From Verrucomicrobiia bacterium (GTDB lineage: Bacteria; Patescibacteriota; Saccharimonadia; Saccharimonadales; JAGQNK01): 52,766 nucleotides of DNA. Made by a program: the position numbers and the translations under genes. Shown here piece after piece: positions 1-18,120 of the stretch; position 1 is the first letter of the stretch; every line of letters begins with the position of its first letter. The notes beneath the pieces were generated by a model that was not told where the DNA came from, made no database searches, and saw nothing but the letters and a program-made list of their open reading frames with translations. The stretch spans positions 1-52,766 of the forward strand of contig DATHJY010000006.1 in the NCBI GenBank assembly GCA_035489575.1, written 5' to 3'.

Positions 1-460
1 TGGCAGCTTGCGGAACTTGTCCTGTCTTTGTTATTGATTTCAAACGAAATACAGGACTGCACACAGTCCTCGCTGCGCAGGTAGCAGAACCTTCCCTGTC
101 TAATCTGTTTACCCAAAGCCAGCCTGGGCCCACAGATGCAAGTCGGCCCGAGGTCTTACTCTTCAAATCCTACAATACCCGCCAGGAAAGCTCGGGCGGT
201 TTGTATTGTCTTTAGGCGGATCAGGCTTTAGAGAAACAGATTGGACGCCTGATAGCTTGATACCCGCGGTCCGAGGACTGTTTGAGCCCCAGCTTGCTGG
301 GGTGAGTTCCGAGATCGTGGCCTTTTCTGCAGCGCAGCAGGCTGAGCCTGCTGGCAGGCAGAAAAGAGACCATGTCAGGAGCCGGATAGCAAGCTGTCAG
401 GTGGTCAGTCTTGTTTCTATAACCGCCTGTCTGACAAAGACAGTACAAGTACTTATAGGA
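1..460. ncRNA. Large structured RNA candidate, copy R1, cut by the window start; homolog of 8615-9066
   Basis: Conserved blocks occur in the same order as in 8615-9066. These are tgcggaacttgYcctg (9-24 vs 8706-8721), cagtcctcg (64-72 vs 8759-8767), caggctttag (222-231 vs 8885-8894), caggagccgga (376-386 vs 8972-8982) and taaccgcctgt (420-430 vs 9016-9026). The cagtcctcg block pairs with cgaggact (272-279 vs 8935-8942). Only short ORFs with no recognisable protein features overlap it. The strand is undetermined. Confidence 0.5.
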
Positions 461-6206: not shown

Positions 6207-7652
6207 ATGAGCTCTTCGACTTTTCTGTTCTATGACTTAGAGACTTCGGGTGTTAGCGCCCGGGATGCGCGCATTATGCAGTTTGCTGGCCAGCGGACAG
6301 ACCTGCAGCTCAATCCCGTGGGTGAGCCGTTTAACTATTTGGTTCGCCTGAGCGACGATGTCCTGCCCGAGCCGGACGCCATTCTGATTACGGGCATCAC
6401 GCCCCAAAAAACCTTGGCCGAGGGAATGCACGAAGCTGAATTCTTAAAGATATTCCATCACGATATTGCCGCTCCAGGCACTATCTTTGTGGGCTTTAAT
6501 ACCGTACGGTTCGACGATGAGTTTATGCGCTACACTATGTATCGCAACTTTTATGACCCTTACGAATGGCAGTGGCAAAATGGCCGGTCACGTTGGGATA
6601 TCTTGGACGTAGTACGCATGACACGTGCCCTGAGGCCGCAGGGAATACAGTGGCCGTTTGACCCCAAGGGCAAGCCAACCAACCGACTAGAGTTGCTGAC
6701 CAAGCTGAATAAGCTGGATCACAGTCATGCTCATGACGCGCTCAATGACGTCCTGGCTACCATTGCGGTTGCTAAGATGATCCGCGACAAACAGCCCAAG
6801 CTATTTGATTTCTTGCTACAGATGCGCGACAAAAAAGAGGTGGCCAAGCTGGTCCAGGGTGGGCAGCCGTTTGTGTACAGCTCTGGCAAATACCCCAGCG
6901 AGTTCGAAAAAACTACTGTGGTTGGCAAGCTGGCTGACCATCCCCAGGCCCAGTCGGCCCTTGTCTTTGACCTGCGACACGATCCAGAGCCTTTCCTAAA
7001 ACTCAATCCCAATGAATTGGCCGAGGCCATGCGCTGGAGTCGCGACGAAAATGCCATCCGACTGCCGGTCAAGACCATCAAATTCAACCGTTGTCCGGCC
7101 ATAGCGCCCCTGGGAGTGCTCGATGCCGATAGCCAACAGCGGCTCAAGTTGGATCCGGCTGTCTATATGGCCAACTTCAAAAAACTGCAGGCTGCCCAGG
7201 AGCGCCTGAGTACCGGCGTATTGCAGGCGTTGGAGTTACTCGACAAGAAGATGCAAGCTCGCTTGCTGCAGGATGAGGCCGACGTAGATACTCGTTTGTA
7301 CGACGGCTTTTTTGACACCCAGGACAAGCTAAAGATGAGCACCGTGCGGGCTGCCACTGCCGAAGAGCTGGGTGGCTTAGACCTGACCTTTAAAGACGAT
7401 CGCCTGGAGGCACTGCTGCCACTGTATAAAGCCCGGAATCACCCCAAGTCACTGACCGCCGAAGAGCGGGCACTATGGGAAACGTTTCGGGAACGCAAGC
7501 TACTGGGCGGTGGCGACCAAAGCCGGGCCGCCAAGTTCTTTAACCGGCTGAGCGAGTTGTCGCAGCGCACCGACCTGACTGGCGAGCAGAAATATCTGCT
7601 GGAAGAGCTGCAATTATACGGCCAAGGTATACTGCCCGTTACTGAGCAATAG
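6207..7652 (+). CDS. sbcB: Exodeoxyribonuclease I
   Basis: There is strong similarity to E. coli ExoI along the full length. Matching segments include FLFYDLETSG, ILITGITPQ, FNTVRFDDEF..YRNFYDPYEWQW..SRWDILDV and HDALNDVLATIAVAK. Confidence 0.9.
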   Translation: MSSSTFLFYDLETSGVSARDARIMQFAGQRTDLQLNPVGEPFNYLVRLSDDVLPEPDAILITGITPQKTLAEGMHEAEFLKIFHHDIAAPGTIFVGFNTVRFDDEFMRYTMYRNFYDPYEWQWQNGRSRWDILDVVRMTRALRPQGIQWPFDPKGKPTNRLELLTKLNKLDHSHAHDALNDVLATIAVAKMIRDKQPKLFDFLLQMRDKKEVAKLVQGGQPFVYSSGKYPSEFEKTTVVGKLADHPQAQSALVFDLRHDPEPFLKLNPNELAEAMRWSRDENAIRLPVKTIKFNRCPAIAPLGVLDADSQQRLKLDPAVYMANFKKLQAAQERLSTGVLQALELLDKKMQARLLQDEADVDTRLYDGFFDTQDKLKMSTVRAATAEELGGLDLTFKDDRLEALLPLYKARNHPKSLTAEERALWETFRERKLLGGGDQSRAAKFFNRLSELSQRTDLTGEQKYLLEELQLYGQGILPVTEQ

Positions 7653-7800
7653 GGCGTGATTTTCCTGACGATGCCCGACGCATTGCCCGAAAGCTCCACC
7701 ATGACAGGCCAACAAAGCCAAAAAGAGCGATTGCCGCGCCTACAAAAGTTACCTGAATTGTGGTGCCTGGAACCAAACCCAGGACAATGAACTCCATCAT
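7639..7800 (-). CDS. Small hypothetical membrane protein (53 aa)
   Basis: ORF 7639..7956 was trimmed to ATGATG at 7795-7800, which is preceded by GAGGAG. It has one hydrophobic helix and a basic tail. Its 3' end overlaps the sbcB end convergently by 14 nt. Confidence 0.4.
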   Translation of the reverse strand: MMEFIVLGLVPGTTIQVTFVGAAIALFGFVGLSWWSFRAMRRASSGKSRPIAQ

Positions 7801-8091
7801 AAAGAATACTCCTCGCAACTTACGCACCAGCCAGCCTGCCACCCGGCACAGCCGGCTGCCCCGCTGGCTTCTTGGCCTCCAGCACATTTTTCCCCTGTGG
7901 TACTCCCTCAACGTACTAAAGTACGTCTCGGTCCGTTCCTCGGGAAGAAAATGCACTGGAGGCTCAAGTGCGTAAGCTGTGCCTACGTTAGTTTTTTAAA
8001 AGTGTGCTCTTTCGGTTCCCCTCAAGGTTGCCCACGTATATGGAGAGTATTTTAAATAAAGTTGTATAAAAAGCAAGTATATTTTATAGAG

Positions 8092-8541
8092 CTAATGCTT
8101 GCGGCGGCCAAAGAGATTGGCCGCAACCCAGTTTTTTACCCGGGCCCATCTGTTGCGATTGCCAAAGAAGCAGAGCAGAGCAAACCCTATGCAAAAAATG
8201 CCGGCCGACACCATCCATATCGCACTGTGGCGGACTAGCAGCAAGACGCCGGCAATCAGTAAAACTACAGTCGCTGTGTCAAAAAACACCCGGCGGGGTG
8301 GCGTAAAGATAACATCGCTAATTTTGTCGGCGTATTCACGCAGCAGGTCAATGTAGCGCTGGGCCCAGTCATGGTTTATTGCCAATAAACTCAGGCCTAT
8401 CAAGAAAAGGGGTATGCCACCCGGACCTGGCAGCCAGCCAGTCAGCAGTGCGGCAAGCATGCATAAAACAGCCAAGGTATCAAAAACAACCAGTTGGGCG
8501 TAGTGCTTTATGCGCGGCATAGAGTCAGTATAACAGGGCAT
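8092..8541 (-). CDS. PGPGW-motif transmembrane protein
   Basis: It contains GWLPGPGGIPLFLIGLSLL, characteristic of the PGPGW membrane protein family, and multiple TM segments. An alternative start lies at 8520. Confidence 0.65.
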   Translation of the reverse strand: MPCYTDSMPRIKHYAQLVVFDTLAVLCMLAALLTGWLPGPGGIPLFLIGLSLLAINHDWAQRYIDLLREYADKISDVIFTPPRRVFFDTATVVLLIAGVLLLVRHSAIWMVSAGIFCIGFALLCFFGNRNRWARVKNWVAANLFGRRKH

Positions 8542-8614
8542 GTTTGGGTTGGGTGCAGCCGCATGCCATTCTCAAAAAGGTTTCGGTAACTGCCCTTAGG
8601 GCAGTTTGACTGAG

Positions 8615-9066
8615 ATACTTTCTTGTGTTGACAAGAAAGTATCCAAAGAAGCAACCGGCGAACTGGAAACAACAATTGAAAAACTGCGTCGAGCTATCCG
8701 GCTCCTGCGGAACTTGCCCTGCCTTATTATTGTCTTCAATGGAAAGCAGGGCTTCAAACAGTCCTCGGACCGCGGCTTACCTCGACGCAGTTTTTCATCG
8801 GTTTCCACTGAGCCGGCATAGGCCTCCATGGATACAAGCCCTAAAGGGCTTGTTTTTTAATAGCCGAAGGCTGCTGCTTGGAACCAGGCTTTAGCCAAAC
8901 TGATTAGACGGCGGTAACCCGGTTGCTCGCGCTCCGAGGACTAGCCTTTAGGCCGACTAAAAGGAGTCCCGCAGGAGCCGGACAGCCGGGTTACCGGCGG
9001 CTAGTCATGTTTGGGTAACCGCCTGTTGTTTCTTTGGTACCTTTCTTGTCAACACAAGAAAGGTAC
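8615..9066. ncRNA. Large structured RNA candidate, copy R2 (complete); homolog of 1-460
   Basis: It is bounded by two 22-nt segments that are exact reverse complements (ctttcttgtgttgacaagaaag inside 8615-8642 and ctttcttgtcaacacaagaaag inside 9037-9066). A 12-bp long-range helix forms between 8697-8708 and 8971-8982. A second helix forms between 8760-8767 and 8935-8942. The conserved blocks are in the same order as in 1-460. No convincing ORF is present. Confidence 0.55.
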
Positions 9067-9196
9067 TCGCAGGAGCTGCTGAAAGCAGCTGCGAAATGGG
9101 TTTAGTTTTGCCTTGTGGTTTTGAGCCGGGAAAAAGATGAGTTACACCGAAGCCGTAACAGGGAGCAGTTGGTCGCTACTGAGCTGGGAGTTATGT

Positions 9197-10012
9197 TTAG
9201 GCAGGTTTGTAGCTGCCGAGGGTTGTTATGGTGCAGCCTTGGGCGCGCAGAACGTCGAAGACGTCGTGTTCCAGCTGTTCGTTTAGCCCGGCCTCGAAAT
9301 CTATATAAAAAGCGTAGTGGCGCTTGTCATTGGCAATGGGATGGCTGTCTAGCTTAGACAGGTTGATACTGGCTTGGGCAAAAGCACCGAGGGCGTCATA
9401 GAGCGCACCGGGTTGATGGTTGGTCTCTAGGATGATGCTGGTTTTGGTAGCTTCCGGCAGATGACTCTTATCTTTGTTTAGTAGGAAAAAGCGCGTGTAG
9501 TTGTGCTCGTCGTCGTTAATTGGCCCTGCCAGAATGGTGCCGCCATGTAATTCTGCGGCGCGTTTGCTGGCAATAGCAGCCCAGGGCTCCCGGGGGTTGG
9601 CCACGACGTATTTGACGCTTGCGGCCGTATCATGGGTTTCTTCTCGGTGCGCTTGTGGCATGGTGGCGTCCAGCCACAGCTCGCACTGCGCAAGGGCCAT
9701 GATTTGGGACATGACTGTTTGAATTTCTGTTAATTCTTTTGGTCCCGCCGCTATAAGGTATTGGTTGACATGCAAATAGGTTTCGCCCTGTACCCAGACC
9801 GAATTGCGCGCTAGCAGGCGATATACCGCGTTGATCGAGCCGTGCAGACTGTTCTCTACGCCAACAATGCCTTTGTCTGCTCTTTCGCTTTCGACTGCCT
9901 CGAATACTTGCTGAAACGTATCGCAGTGCAGCAGTTCTATATCTGTTCCAAGCATTTTCTGCGCTGCTTCGTGATGGAACGAACCAGCAATGCCTTGAAT
10001 AGCGACTTTCAT
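9197..10012 (-). CDS. pheA: Prephenate dehydratase
   Basis: The PDT domain is present (MKVAIQGIAGSFHHEAA...TRFFLL). A C-terminal ACT domain follows (PGALYDALGAFAQASINLSKLDSHPI). Confidence 0.85.
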   Translation of the reverse strand: MKVAIQGIAGSFHHEAAQKMLGTDIELLHCDTFQQVFEAVESERADKGIVGVENSLHGSINAVYRLLARNSVWVQGETYLHVNQYLIAAGPKELTEIQTVMSQIMALAQCELWLDATMPQAHREETHDTAASVKYVVANPREPWAAIASKRAAELHGGTILAGPINDDEHNYTRFFLLNKDKSHLPEATKTSIILETNHQPGALYDALGAFAQASINLSKLDSHPIANDKRHYAFYIDFEAGLNEQLEHDVFDVLRAQGCTITTLGSYKPA

Positions 10013-17363: not shown

Positions 17364-17411
17364 ATGACTAGCCTACCAGCCGCACCTTGTCACGTCCATC
17401 GATATTTCAGT

Positions 17412-17455
17412 ATATTTCAGGGTCGAACCCTGTACAGGGTTCGACCCTGAAATAT
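17412..17455. repeat. REP-like perfect palindrome (21-bp arms) upstream of the Y1 transposase
   Basis: The sequence is atatttcagggtcgaaccctg-ta-cagggttcgaccctgaaatat. The core tttcagggttcgaccctgaaa recurs at 18090-18120. Confidence 0.8.
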
Positions 17456-17466
17456 CGGTGTATAAT

Positions 17467-18081
17467 ATGCTTATGCCAAGTAGGAACCGAGTGAAAGTAT
17501 ACGGCCCTCAGCACGTCTATCACGTATATAATAGGGGCAACAACAAAGAACTAGTCTTTCGAGTGTCAGAGGATTACGCGGTTTTCCTTAATATCTTAAA
17601 AAGATATCTCGGAGAAAAGCAAGAGAATGATTCGCTAGGGAGATTGTATAAGAACTTTAGTAGCGAGATTGAGCTAGTGGCCTTTTGCTTGATGCCAAAT
17701 CACTACCATTTACTCCTGTATCAAGAGACCGCAGATGGCATTACAAAACTAATGAAAAGTATTACTGCCTCTTACACGGGCTATTTCAATAAAAAATATG
17801 AACATGTGGGCCATGTTTTTCAGGGGACGTTCAAGGCTTCGCTGATTGATCAAGAGAGCTACTGGCAGCATATTTCACGCTATATTCACTTAAATCCCCG
17901 GCAGTGGCGAAACTGGAGGTGGTCAAGCTTGCCTTATTATCTTGGTGAAAAACAATCTGATTGGGTGAAGCCGGAGCGTTTGTTAGGGGTATTTGAGGGG
18001 CATGATTACTTGAGTTTTGTATCTGACCATGAAGACCACAAGGCTATGCTCGATGAATTAAAGACCATGTTGGCCAACTAG
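17467..18081 (+). CDS. IS200/RAYT-type Y1 (HUH) transposase-like protein
   Basis: The motifs HVYNRGNN, FCLMPNHYHLLL (HUH) and YIHLNP are typical of the Y1_Tnp / REP-associated tyrosine transposase family. Alternative starts lie at 17458 (GTG) and 17473. Confidence 0.75.
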   Translation: MLMPSRNRVKVYGPQHVYHVYNRGNNKELVFRVSEDYAVFLNILKRYLGEKQENDSLGRLYKNFSSEIELVAFCLMPNHYHLLLYQETADGITKLMKSITASYTGYFNKKYEHVGHVFQGTFKASLIDQESYWQHISRYIHLNPRQWRNWRWSSLPYYLGEKQSDWVKPERLLGVFEGHDYLSFVSDHEDHKAMLDELKTMLAN

Positions 18082-18089
18082 AGGTCGTT

Positions 18090-18120
18090 ACCTATTTCAG
18101 GGTTCGACCCTGAAATAGGT
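18090..18120. repeat. REP-like palindrome downstream of the Y1 transposase
   Basis: The sequence acctatttcagggttcgaccctgaaataggt is a perfect palindrome. It shares its core with 17412-17455. Confidence 0.8.

What the first reader, a model, noticed from the sequence alone, without database searches (positions are those of the whole stretch)
8590..9110. Roughly 450-nt ornate structured element with 22-nt reverse-complementary termini (R2), unclassified
The pheA / PGPGW-gene spacer holds a long non-coding element. It has several long-range helices, including the 12-bp 8697-8708 with 8971-8982 and 8760-8767 with 8935-8942. It also has many local hairpins and two 22-nt ends that are exact reverse complements of each other (8621-8642 and 9043-9064). 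Each end can also fold on itself.

A second, diverged copy lies at 1-460. It has the same block order, and differences inside helices keep the pairing. This fits a functional large RNA or a structured mobile element such as a MITE.

I could not match it to RNase P, tmRNA, SRP, 6S or common riboswitch signatures by eye.
Basis: seen in the sequence. Interest (0 to 1): 0.65.

Follow-up and report, generated by a model that had tools for sequence, protein, structure and literature searches.

The report
Paired structured repeats with triple-helix ends
The "450-nt ornate RNA" is two outward-facing copies of a ~200-base folded repeat inserted between two genes; the repeat occurs in many bacterial phyla, ends in a knot-like hairpin with a probable third strand, matches no catalogued RNA family, and has no known function.

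Summary
In detail: window 8585-9110 folds far better than shuffled sequence on both strands (z about -16).

It is not one large RNA. It is a back-to-back pair of two ~200-230-nt units:
- left unit on the minus strand, 8614-8820
- right unit on the plus strand, 8834-9066

The 22-nt termini are the stems of two terminal "heads".

Each unit has two parts:
- a rod of nested helices around an invariant core (GAGGACUGUYUGA ... AGUUCCRCAG)
- a 3' H-type pseudoknot whose U/C-rich linker can form base triples with the hairpin's purine arm

Helices covary strongly across 34 units from 29 other genomes. One strand is consistently favoured. The genome holds at least 20 units at 10 loci.

Four genomes of a sister genus have pheA and the PGPGW gene about 18 nt apart, so this copy is an insertion.

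The core and head recur in Proteobacteria, Nitrospirota, Firmicutes, Actinomycetota, Bacteroidota and CPR bacteria. Nothing matches in Rfam 15.

Best reading: a non-autonomous, structure-dependent mobile repeat, like REP/BIME or MITEs. Whether the folded form is RNA or single-stranded DNA is unresolved, and no mobilising protein was found.

The parts
8614..8655 (-). Left head, read on the minus strand. PK strand GTTG (rc of 8652-8655). Third strand CTTCTTTG (rc of 8644-8651). Hairpin 8614-8626/8631-8643, with loop 8627-8630 that pairs with the PK strand.
   Evidence: Perfect 13-bp hairpin (I6). Head detected by pattern. Six consecutive parallel triples and a 4-bp pseudoknot.
8649..8820 (-). 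Left rod unit: nested helices P1-P7 with a variable stem and a long apical hairpin.
   Evidence: R1 covariance-model hit, 124.4 bits, E 3.7e-33, full length. Single-sequence fold.
8705..8767 (-). Left invariant core. GAGGACTGTTTGA is the rc of 8755-8767. AGTTCCGCAGG is the rc of 8705-8715. Between them lies the apical hairpin.
   Evidence: Sequence. Columns invariant across 34 units of 29 other genomes.
8834..8873 (+). 5' extension of the right unit: a terminator-like hairpin 8834-8853 with a T6 run, then AATA and the small hairpin GCCGAAGGC (8865-8873).
   Evidence: Terminator-like site. The same 'hairpin, AATAAT, small GC hairpin, CTNCT' layout lies upstream of units in other genomes.
8879..9031 (+). 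Right rod unit. The core is a variant: GAGGACT at 8936-8942 and AGTCCCGCAGG at 8965-8975, with a short apical hairpin.
   Evidence: R1 hit, 127.8 bits, E 4.1e-34, full length.
9024..9066 (+). Right head. PK strand TGTTG 9024-9028. Third strand TTTCTTT 9029-9035. Hairpin 9037-9049/9054-9066. Loop CAAC(A) 9050-9054 pairs with the PK strand.
   Evidence: Perfect 13-bp hairpin (I7). Six consecutive parallel triples and a 5-bp pseudoknot. The same layout is found in other genera and phyla.
8537..9193 (.). Whole segment present in this genome but absent between pheA and the PGPGW gene in the sister genus. It comprises the dimer plus 77 nt and 127 nt of unique flank.
   Evidence: Orthologous junctions in G002, G004, G005 and G006 have a spacer of about 18 nt. 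The flanks are unique in this genome.
1..435 (.). Second dimer of the same family, from a sub-lineage without heads. Left unit 1-128 (-), cut by the contig end. Right unit 216-435 (+), which carries an extra ~65-nt hairpin insert at about 300-375.
9197..10012 (-). pheA (prephenate dehydratase with an ACT domain), the upstream neighbour on the minus strand.
   Evidence: Pfam PDT, E 1.1e-55.
8092..8520 (-). PGPGW-family membrane protein gene, the downstream neighbour. The orthologue alignment puts its start at the ATG at 8520 (MPRIKHY...), not at 8541.
   Evidence: Pfam PGPGW, weak hit. Alignment with four orthologues.

Best explanation
The element is a back-to-back pair of two copies of a non-autonomous, structure-dependent repeat. 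It is of the general kind of REP/BIME elements and MITEs.

Each copy has one functional strand, here called the S strand. On that strand it consists of:
- a ~150-175-nt rod of nested helices built around an invariant ~25-nt core
- a 3' head: an H-type pseudoknot whose U/C-rich linker lies in the groove of a pyrimidine/purine hairpin and can form base triples with it

In the pair, the two S strands point outwards, so the heads are the tips of the element.

Shown here:
- The unit and its fold.
- Strong covariation of the helices.
- A clear preference for one strand.
- Many copies in this genome.
- Presence/absence differences at orthologous sites.
- Spread of the core and head across phyla.

Inferred, not shown:
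- The pair arrived by insertion between pheA and the PGPGW gene, which are adjacent in relatives.
- The family spreads as DNA.
- The folded single strand, with the head as its end and the invariant core as a recognition site, is what a factor encoded elsewhere (not found) acts on.
- Host effects such as transcript insulation or 3'-end protection would be secondary.
For: Repeat family in this genome.
- At least 24 nhmmer fragments, about 20 units, at 10 loci.
- Four contig ends lie inside the repeat.
- All 8 pairs have the same outward-facing arrangement.
- The two units of a pair belong to different sub-lineages, and units are shuffled between pairs.

Structure.
- 47 pairs in this genome's own units, 29 with compensatory changes.
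- On 34 units from 29 other genomes: 88% of cells are paired against 35-46% for slid controls.
- 41 of 47 pairs change on both sides.
- The covariation score is 0.62 against 0.10-0.14.

Strand preference.
- Consensus fold energy (RNAalifold) is -43.4 against -20.1 kcal/mol for the opposite strand.
- The S strand is more stable in 16 of 17 units of this genome.
- It is more stable in 32 of 33 foreign units, p 1e-9.

Insertion.
- pheA and the PGPGW gene are about 18 nt apart in four genomes of the sister genus, and 675 nt apart here.
- Within that genus, G006 has a unit in a convergent spacer where G002 and G004 have only a terminator hairpin.

Distribution.
- 97 of 401 genomes and 78 of 255 genera of the order have a match.
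- The core pattern gave at least 120 stretches in many phyla, against about 8 expected by chance.
- One Halieaceae chromosome holds 56 exact cores and 0 for the reversed control.

Mobile-element behaviour.
- Pairs can enclose orphan genes.
- IS elements sit inside them.
- Copies are enriched between convergent genes and rare between divergent ones.
- There is no orientation bias relative to neighbouring genes.

Head.
- Third-strand register and pseudoknot pairing both track their own hairpin beyond permuted controls.
Against: - No target-site duplication or sharp insertion boundary could be defined. The inserted 655 nt includes 77 nt and 127 nt of unique flank beyond the heads.
- No mobilising gene was found. 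No protein family recurs next to 120 loci. Y1/RAYT transposases are only weakly associated: 39% against 23%, and absent from 59 of 97 unit-bearing genomes.
- Single units are commoner than pairs outside this genome. Tandem arrays also occur. The pair is therefore not obviously the unit that moves.
- About 18 units of this genome have multiplied without the head.
- G-U-rich strand-specific folding and a triple-helix pseudoknot are classic RNA features, so an RNA-level role is not excluded.
Confidence: 0.6

Rival explanations
1. Each unit works as RNA: a structured module whose 3' triple-helix pseudoknot caps the transcript against 3'-to-5' exonucleases. That would make it a bacterial analogue of ENE/MALAT1-type triple helices. 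The outward-facing pair would give a protected 3' end to whatever is transcribed out of the middle in either direction. The repeat spreads because it carries this useful or selfish RNA function.
For: - One strand is consistently more stable and richer in G-U pairs: 167 against 81.
- A conserved U.G wobble and a bulged U lie in helix P2.
- An H-type pseudoknot with U.A-U and C+.G-C major-groove triples is a known RNA fold (review PMC13541005). It is supported here by three-way covariation.
- In pairs with cargo, the gene's 3' side always carries a sense unit.
- In G006 the unit replaces the intrinsic terminator of a convergent spacer.
Against: - There is no orientation bias relative to the upstream gene in co-directional contexts: 19 same against 24 opposite, and 8 against 5.
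- No promoter-like site is found in or before the focal units, and none is conserved upstream of units in other genomes.
- No U-tract follows the head.
- The commonest minimal apical hairpin is GCGAAGC. From general knowledge, this is an exceptionally stable DNA mini-hairpin but only a 2-bp triloop as RNA.
- About 18 units in this genome lack the head.
- No expression data are available.
Confidence: 0.28
2. The element is kept by the host as a DNA or transcription punctuation site. It could be a bidirectional terminator or insulator, or a binding site for a nucleoid or replication protein, as proposed for REP/BIMEs. On this reading it is not a mobile element.
For: - Copies are enriched between convergent genes and at 3' ends, and rare between divergent genes.
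- In the order-level consensus, helix P2 is an A-run/U-run pair flanking a long hairpin. It therefore looks terminator-like in both directions.
- A unit replaces a terminator hairpin in G006.
Against: - Distribution is patchy: 24% of genomes of the order.
- Copy number varies from 1 to more than 50 per genome.
- Copies differ in presence at orthologous sites.
- The ~25-nt core is invariant across phyla, far more than a terminator needs.
- Proteobacterial copies lack the A/U tracts.
Confidence: 0.09
3. The whole 8590-9110 stretch is one ~450-nt ornate non-coding RNA, a GOLLD/ROOL/OLE-like large RNA.
For: The whole stretch has a very low folding energy, and long-range helices can be drawn.
Against: - Both strands fold equally well, as expected for an inverted duplication.
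- The model places two complete units on opposite strands.
- The long-range helices are the conserved boxes of the two units. Their variable stems do not match each other.
- In other genomes the unit is mostly single.
- No large-RNA family matches.
Confidence: 0.03

Closest known systems
REP / BIME / REPIN elements of Proteobacteria (with RAYT transposases)
   Same: - Extragenic, hairpin-forming, multi-copy repeats.
- Units occur singly, as inverted pairs and as mosaic tandem arrays with other small repeats.
- They sit mainly at gene 3' ends.
- They are favoured landing sites for IS elements.
   Different: - Units are 5-6 times longer, about 200 nt against about 35 nt.
- They have conserved internal loops, a ~25-nt core invariant across phyla, and a pseudoknot/triplex head.
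- No RAYT gene is flanked by them. The window's own RAYT-like gene has a different palindrome.
- The Y1_Tnp association is weak.
MITEs and mobile insertion cassettes (non-autonomous elements with terminal inverted repeats)
   Same: - Outward-facing inverted ends.
- Copies with and without passenger genes.
- Filled and empty sites.
- Many copies, which break the assembly.
   Different: - No target-site duplication and no parent transposase were found.
- The two arms of a pair are not copies of each other.
- Single arms are common.
- Arms keep their structure through covariation, whereas MITEs decay uniformly.
Triple-helix H-type pseudoknots in RNA (telomerase RNA, SAM-II and preQ1-II riboswitches) and ENE/MALAT1 3'-end triple helices
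   Same: Loop 1 of an H-type pseudoknot runs along the purine strand of the second stem in parallel register, with U.A-U and C+.G-C triples. These known folds are summarised in PMC13541005.
   Different: - Here the motif is the end of a dispersed repeat in many phyla.
- It is not a ligand sensor or a poly(A) clamp.
- Whether it forms in RNA or in DNA is unknown.
- No solved structure or probing data exist.
BoxC / PIT / TM_ECO intrastrand triplex repeats (Holder et al. 2015, PMC4666352)
   Same: Dispersed bacterial repeats whose single strand can fold into an intramolecular triplex.
   Different: - TM_ECO is a ~45-nt G/C-rich purine-motif triplex (CCCTCNCCC...GGGNGAGGG...GGGNGAGGG).
- It has no pseudoknot, rod or invariant core, and is confined to Proteobacteria.
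- The head described here is a pyrimidine-motif A/T-rich triplex.
Integron attC sites
   Same: - Recombination sites defined by folded single-strand structure rather than by sequence.
- Strand-specific, with conserved bulged bases and variable stems.
- Associated with orphan gene cassettes.
   Different: - No R''/R' (RYYYAAC/GTTRRRY) boxes by inspection.
- Units are 150-230 nt against 57-141 nt.
- They are dispersed, not in arrays beside an integrase. IntI was not searched for.
Large ornate bacterial RNAs (GOLLD, ROOL, OLE, HEARO, raiA)
   Same: Large predicted structure in an intergenic region.
   Different: None of these Rfam models matches. The element is two units on opposite strands.

Membership tests
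Any Rfam 15 family (including GOLLD, ROOL, OLE, HEARO, raiA, TwoAYGGAY, hairpin and hammerhead ribozymes) | A covariance-model match at or near the family's gathering score. | tested here: not met
   No hit at gathering score on the window. The best hit at E<=10 on 8400-9300 is a miRNA model at 21.7 bits against a gathering score of 140. Nothing was found on proteobacterial, Firmicutes or Actinomycetota copies either.
MITE | Terminal inverted repeats. | tested here: met
   8618-8660 against 9020-9062: 43 nt, 88% complementary. The whole element is an inverted pair of units.
MITE | Target-site duplication flanking the element. | tested here: inconclusive
   No direct repeat is seen at the head tips. 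The filled and empty sites are too diverged to set the boundaries.
MITE | A related autonomous element encoding the transposase. | tested here: not met
   No recurrent neighbour protein at 120 loci. The transposases found inside pairs have their own inverted repeats and are secondary insertions.
REP/REPIN-RAYT system | A RAYT (Y1 HUH) gene flanked by the repeat and co-occurring with it. | tested here: not met
   The RAYT-like ORF at 17458-18081 is flanked by a different palindrome. Y1_Tnp is present in 39% of unit-bearing genomes against 23% of unit-free ones, and 59 of 97 carriers lack it.
Triple-helix pseudoknot repeat family (cross-phylum; described only in earlier notes of this scan) | A hairpin with a pyrimidine-rich 5' arm and a purine-rich 3' arm, preceded by a U/C-rich strand whose sequence matches the purine arm in parallel register. 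| tested here: met
   Both focal heads have 6 consecutive canonical triples. Over 62 heads the mean run is 5.79, against 4.86 +/- 0.09 when permuted and 3.11 for the antiparallel control.
Triple-helix pseudoknot repeat family (cross-phylum; described only in earlier notes of this scan) | The hairpin loop pairs with the stretch just 5' of the third strand, giving an H-type pseudoknot. | tested here: met
   Focal heads: TGTTG/CAACA on the right and GTTG/CAAC on the left. The pairing covaries in G001, Dechloromonas, Sulfuricella and Ilyobacter. Mean run is 5.11 against 4.46 +/- 0.11 when permuted.
Triple-helix pseudoknot repeat family (cross-phylum; described only in earlier notes of this scan) | Physical formation of the triplex in RNA or DNA. 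| not testable with these tools
   This needs melting, CD, NMR or chemical probing.
Integron attC | R''/R' core sites, and a neighbouring IntI or a cassette array. | tested here: not met
   No RYYYAAC/GTTRRRY boxes at the base of the hairpin by inspection of the alignments. The loci are dispersed. An IntI search was not run.

The most novel reading that the evidence does not exclude
The rod-plus-head unit would be a new, phylum-spanning class of folded single-stranded nucleic acid.
- Its ~25-nt core is invariant from Saccharibacteria to Proteobacteria, Nitrospirota and Firmicutes. It would be read by a universal host machine or be catalytic itself.
- Its 3' end would be a natural pyrimidine-motif triple-helix pseudoknot. 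I could not find that fold described for any bacterial repeat or bacterial RNA 3' end.
- On this reading the family is a protein-less element that propagates or persists through its fold. The focal dimer would be a cassette-less form of a carrier that can bracket accessory genes.
Probability: 0.3. Interest if true: 0.9.

Novelty: new variant of a known kind. Interest (0 to 1): 0.7.

Why it matters
Bacterial dispersed repeats such as REP, BIME, ERIC and MITEs are usually short, lineage-specific and poorly conserved. This family differs in three ways:
- It keeps an elaborate fold by covariation.
- It has a core that does not change across phyla.
- It ends in a pseudoknot with three-way covariation consistent with a triple helix.

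No linked protein has been found, and it is missing from Rfam.

If the fold works as RNA, it would be a bacterial 3'-end triple helix. If it works as single-stranded DNA, it would point to an unknown structure-specific mobilisation or replication-linked process shared by very different bacteria.

There is also a practical side. These elements break assemblies of small genomes, generate spurious ORFs, split operons (here pheA and the PGPGW gene) and attract IS insertions.

Tried and rejected
- **Rfam**, at gathering score and at permissive E-values, on the window and on copies from four phyla. Nothing was found.
- **RAYT/Y1 transposase as partner.** The window's RAYT-like gene has its own six-copy palindrome. 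Co-occurrence across 401 genomes is weak. Rejected as a required partner.
- **Parent IS.** The IS481-like gene in C13 and the IS4-family gene in Sulfuricella both have their own inverted repeats and sit inside units or pairs. Rejected as parents.
- **Recurrent neighbour genes** at 120 loci. None. Cargo ORFs have no Pfam match.
- **Promoter.** None in the focal region and none conserved upstream of units.
- **Replication-strand bias** in four complete chromosomes. An apparent strand switch in the Halieaceae genome does not line up with dnaA. Inconclusive.
- **Phage link.** No BLAST hit in 50,697 phage records. Only 4 pattern hits in 2.9 million viral contigs.
- **Target-site duplication** from filled and empty sites. 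Not resolvable.
- **Literature.** Searches by sequence words and by topic found no description. TM_ECO triplex repeats are a different motif. A 2026 review of RNA triple helices lists no such bacterial element.
- **Hairpin-ribozyme resemblance.** The antisense strand reads ...AAACAGUCCUC..., which resembles the hairpin-ribozyme substrate. I considered this, but no Rfam hairpin-ribozyme hit supports it.
Full report
**1. The observation**

Window 8585-9110 folds far better than shuffled sequence on both strands. The plus strand gives -262.8 kcal/mol and the minus strand -252, against about -166 for shuffles (z -15.6 and -16.2).

- 8693-8714 with 8965-8986
- 8760-8774 with 8928-8942
- the 43-nt complementary ends, 8618-8660 with 9020-9062
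- the two perfect 13-bp terminal hairpins

The exact 22-nt reverse-complementary words lie at 8618-8639 and 9041-9062, 2-3 nt from the stated coordinates. The diverged second copy at 1-460 is real. No Rfam family matches, either at gathering score or at E<=10.

**2. It is a pair of repeat units, not one RNA**

The window's genome is 1.52 Mb in 14 contigs. Earlier notes of this scan call it a soil Saccharibacterium. I did not verify the name, but my model's best named full-length hits include Candidatus Saccharibacteria records.

The genome holds a dispersed repeat. BLAST and nhmmer find about 24 fragments, roughly 20 units, at 10 loci. Four contig ends lie inside it.

Aligning the copies shows a basic unit of about 170-230 nt that is itself a long imperfect hairpin. 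Its conserved boxes are separated by stems whose sequences differ completely between copies yet stay complementary.

Eight of the ten loci, including the focal one, are pairs of units in inverted orientation, always in the same arrangement. The two units of a pair belong to different sub-lineages, and units are shuffled between pairs. The unit at C8:31228 resembles that at C14:98993, and C8:31624 resembles C9:380. The left units of the C6-start and C9-start loci are identical.

**3. One strand is the structured one**

Each unit, folded on its own, is more stable on one strand, which I call S. This holds in 16 of 17 units of this genome. The consensus fold is -43.4 kcal/mol on S against -20.1 on the complement.

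On S, a conserved C/A mismatch becomes a U.G wobble, and helix P2 becomes continuous with one conserved bulged U.

The same holds for units of other genomes. S is more stable in 32 of 33, by a mean of 11.9 kcal/mol (p 1e-9), with 167 against 81 G-U pairs.

In the focal element:
- S is the minus strand for the left unit (rod 8649-8820).
- S is the plus strand for the right unit (rod 8879-9031).

The 5' ends meet in the middle and the 3' ends point outwards.

**4. Conservation and covariation**

I built a covariance model (R1) from 15 units: 47 pairs, 29 with compensatory changes. It finds full-length copies in 97 of 401 genomes of the same order, covering 78 of 255 genera. Only 6 candidates per genome were scored.

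On 34 units from 29 other genomes:
- 88% of pair cells are standard pairs, against 35-46% when partners are slid.
- 41 of 47 pairs change on both sides.
- The covariation score is 0.62 against 0.10-0.14.

The alignment is fitted to the model, which favours the structure, but the margin is large.

The apical helix and its flanking loops do not vary: C-GAGGA(C)U-GUYUGA-[variable hairpin of 7-90 nt]-AGUUCC-RCA-G.

**5. The ends are pseudoknot heads with a probable triple helix**

Outside this genome, almost every unit is followed directly by a ~45-nt module. A short strand continues helix P1. Next come a U/C-rich run and a hairpin with a pyrimidine 5' arm and a purine 3' arm. The hairpin's loop pairs back to that short strand.

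The focal element has one such head at each tip:

| Feature | Right head (+) | Left head (-) |
|---|---|---|
| PK strand | TGTTG 9024-9028 | rc of 8652-8655 |
| Third strand | TTTCTTT 9029-9035 | rc of 8644-8651 |
| Hairpin stem | 9037-9049 / 9054-9066 | 8614-8626 / 8631-8643 |
| Loop pairing with PK strand | CAACA 9050-9054 | 8627-8630 |

The pseudoknot covaries between taxa:
- TGTTG/CAACA here
- GCCA/TGGT in G001
- TCGCC/GGCGA in Dechloromonas and Sulfuricella
- TGCC/GGCA in Ilyobacter

The U/C-rich run matches the purine arm in parallel register. For example, TTTTCTTT goes with AAAAGAAA, TTCTTTTT with AAGAAAAA, and TTCTCTTT with AAGAGAAA. In one case a G faces a T-A interruption.

Over 62 distinct heads:
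- The mean run of canonical triples is 5.79. Permuting third strands among heads gives 4.86 +/- 0.09 (maximum 5.11). The antiparallel control gives 3.11.
- The pseudoknot run is 5.11, against 4.46 +/- 0.11 when permuted.
- Both focal heads score 6 triples.

The result here rests on my own loci and statistics. Physical formation of the triplex is untested.

Only these two heads exist in the window's genome. Its other ~18 units are a head-less sub-lineage with extended outer stems.

**6. Spread across phyla**

I scanned one genome per prokaryotic species for the invariant core (GAGGACTGTYTG N8-38 AGTTCCRCAG). My estimate of chance matches for 22 specified bases in 596 Gb is about 8.

The hits come from:
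- Beta- and Gammaproteobacteria
- Nitrospirota
- Campylobacterota
- Spirochaetota
- Myxococcota
- Actinomycetota
- Lachnospiraceae
- Bacteroidota
- Gracilibacteria, Saccharibacteria and other CPR groups

At least 62 of these cores are followed by a head, and many match the whole rod model.

A Dechloromonas locus (L110:6740-7270) is a back-to-back dimer with heads at both tips, the same design as the focal element. One Halieaceae chromosome has 56 exact cores and none for the reversed control. Many of these lie in co-oriented tandem mosaic arrays with a 40-nt companion repeat.

Outside the order, R1 itself found almost nothing in a phylum-level sample. The rods have diverged, while the core and head are shared.

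Viruses rarely carry the element. Rfam has nothing for copies from any of these taxa.

**7. Evidence for insertion**

In four genomes of the sister genus, the pheA stop is followed after about 18 nt by the start of the PGPGW orthologue (MARIKHY...). Here the two genes are 675 nt apart, and about 655 nt is extra: the dimer plus 77 nt and 127 nt of unique flank. The alignment also moves the likely PGPGW start to 8520.

Within that sister genus, G006 has a unit with a head in a convergent spacer. G002 and G004 have only a terminator hairpin there. Sequence divergence prevented defining exact ends or a target duplication.

Elsewhere:
- Outward-facing pairs enclose orphan ORFs with no Pfam match.
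- IS elements with their own inverted repeats sit inside a unit (C13, IS481-like) or in the centre of a pair (Sulfuricella, IS4 family).

**8. Context and what it says about mechanism**

Copies lie mainly between convergent or co-directional genes and rarely between divergent ones. The counts are 13/13/3 in the order and 27/43/5 across phyla. In co-directional contexts the S strand shows no preference for the neighbours' orientation (8 against 5, and 19 against 24).

Other observations:
- No promoter-like site lies in the focal region.
- The one terminator-like hairpin (8834-8853 plus T6) belongs to a 5' extension of the right unit. Similar extensions lie upstream of units in other genomes.
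- No protein family recurs beside the element.
- Y1/RAYT transposases are only weakly associated (39% against 23%, odds ratio 2.1, uncorrected for phylogeny). They are absent from 59 of 97 carriers.
- The window's own RAYT-like gene has a different six-copy palindrome.
- A test for replication-strand bias was inconclusive.

**9. Interpretation**

These points are shown:
- the unit
- its fold
- its strand preference
- its multiplicity
- insertion polymorphism
- the cross-phylum core and head

The following is inferred. The family is a non-autonomous, structure-dependent mobile repeat. The focal element is an outward-facing pair, cargo-less here, that landed between pheA and the PGPGW gene.

Two readings of the folded strand remain open. 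They divide my 0.60 for the mobile-repeat explanation and 0.28 for the RNA-module rival.

For single-stranded DNA recognised by a factor encoded elsewhere:
- no orientation bias relative to genes
- no promoter or terminator
- GCGAAGC mini-hairpins
- tips that behave like transposon ends

For RNA, with the triple-helix pseudoknot capping the 3' end:
- G-U-rich strand-specific folding
- an RNA-type pseudoknot
- replacement of a terminator by a unit

The single large RNA reading is effectively excluded.

**10. Novelty**

The closest known things are:
- REP/BIME/REPIN elements and MITEs, for behaviour
- triple-helix pseudoknots of telomerase RNA and SAM-II/preQ1-II riboswitches, for the head's fold
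- TM_ECO/PIT intrastrand triplex repeats, a different purine-motif element (PMC4666352)

I found no description of this family in Rfam 15 or in the searchable literature. Several earlier AI notes of this scan describe what appears to be the same family in other genomes. They are not independent evidence, but they agree with what I measured.

Noticed in passing
window 17405-18120: A RAYT-like Y1 (HUH) transposase ORF lies at 17458-18081 (+), 207 aa, with an HYHLLL motif. It is bracketed by its own palindrome, TTTCAGGGTTCGACCCTGAAA, at 17412-17455 and 18092-18118. That palindrome has about 6 copies in the genome. A second Y1_Tnp gene lies at C14:3004-3237.
   Followed up: partly
window 8520-8541: The PGPGW-family gene probably starts at the ATG at 8520 (MPRIKHY...), as in four orthologues, not at 8541. 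In relatives it follows pheA by about 18 nt, so the insertion has split a tight gene pair.
   Followed up: partly
window 300-375; also genome contig C14:98610-98680: Two units carry a nearly identical extra hairpin of about 65 nt (ACATGGTCTCTTTTCTGCC...GGCCACGATCT). It is inserted at the same internal loop, between CCGGCTCCTG and CGGAACT. This could be a nested mini-insertion or an expansion segment.
   Followed up: no
genome contig C13:162326-163744 (L004, L027): An IS481-like (rve) transposase gene with its own inverted repeats (GGTTCAATACCTTCGCACCACC) is inserted inside the variable stem of a unit. An IS4-family transposase sits in the exact centre of a pair in a Sulfuricella genome (L142:1900-3440).
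   Followed up: partly
window 1-140; contig ends of C7, C8 and C9: The window's first 140 nt are identical to the start of contig C9. The end of C8 is the reverse complement of the start of C7. The repeat collapses two loci in the assembly graph.
   Followed up: no
L220 (Halieaceae chromosome, 1780300-1783500): Five co-oriented units lie with a 450-610-nt period. They are interleaved with 11 copies of a 40-nt repeat, TATGGGACTTGCGGGCTGCTTTTCGCGCTGAGTGCTGGCG. This is a BIME-like mosaic array with no credible ORFs.
   Followed up: partly
L131 (Methylotenera), head about 5326: The purine arm has a T interruption (AAAATAAAG), and the putative third strand has a G at the matching position (TTTTGTTT). 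This is as expected for a G.T-A triple.
   Followed up: no
L212:2500-2552 (Ilyobacter polytropus pILYOP01): A head of the same type (CCTTTTCTTTGGTTACTTTCTTTGGGCAAGCAAAGAAAGTAAC) occurs at 6 places in a Fusobacteriota megaplasmid. At the one locus inspected no rod core was apparent in about 400 nt upstream, so heads may also exist on their own.
   Followed up: no
window 7875-7963 (-): A weak partial match to the unit model (13.3 bits, E 0.06, model positions 36-139), inside or next to the 105-codon ORF 7639-7956. It may be a decayed unit.
   Followed up: no
L107, L130, L140 and 22 copies in two Nitrospirales chromosomes: The commonest minimal apical hairpin of the core is GCGAAGC, and the head loops of many proteobacterial copies also read GCGAAG. 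From general knowledge, d(GCGAAGC) is an exceptionally stable DNA mini-hairpin.
   Followed up: no
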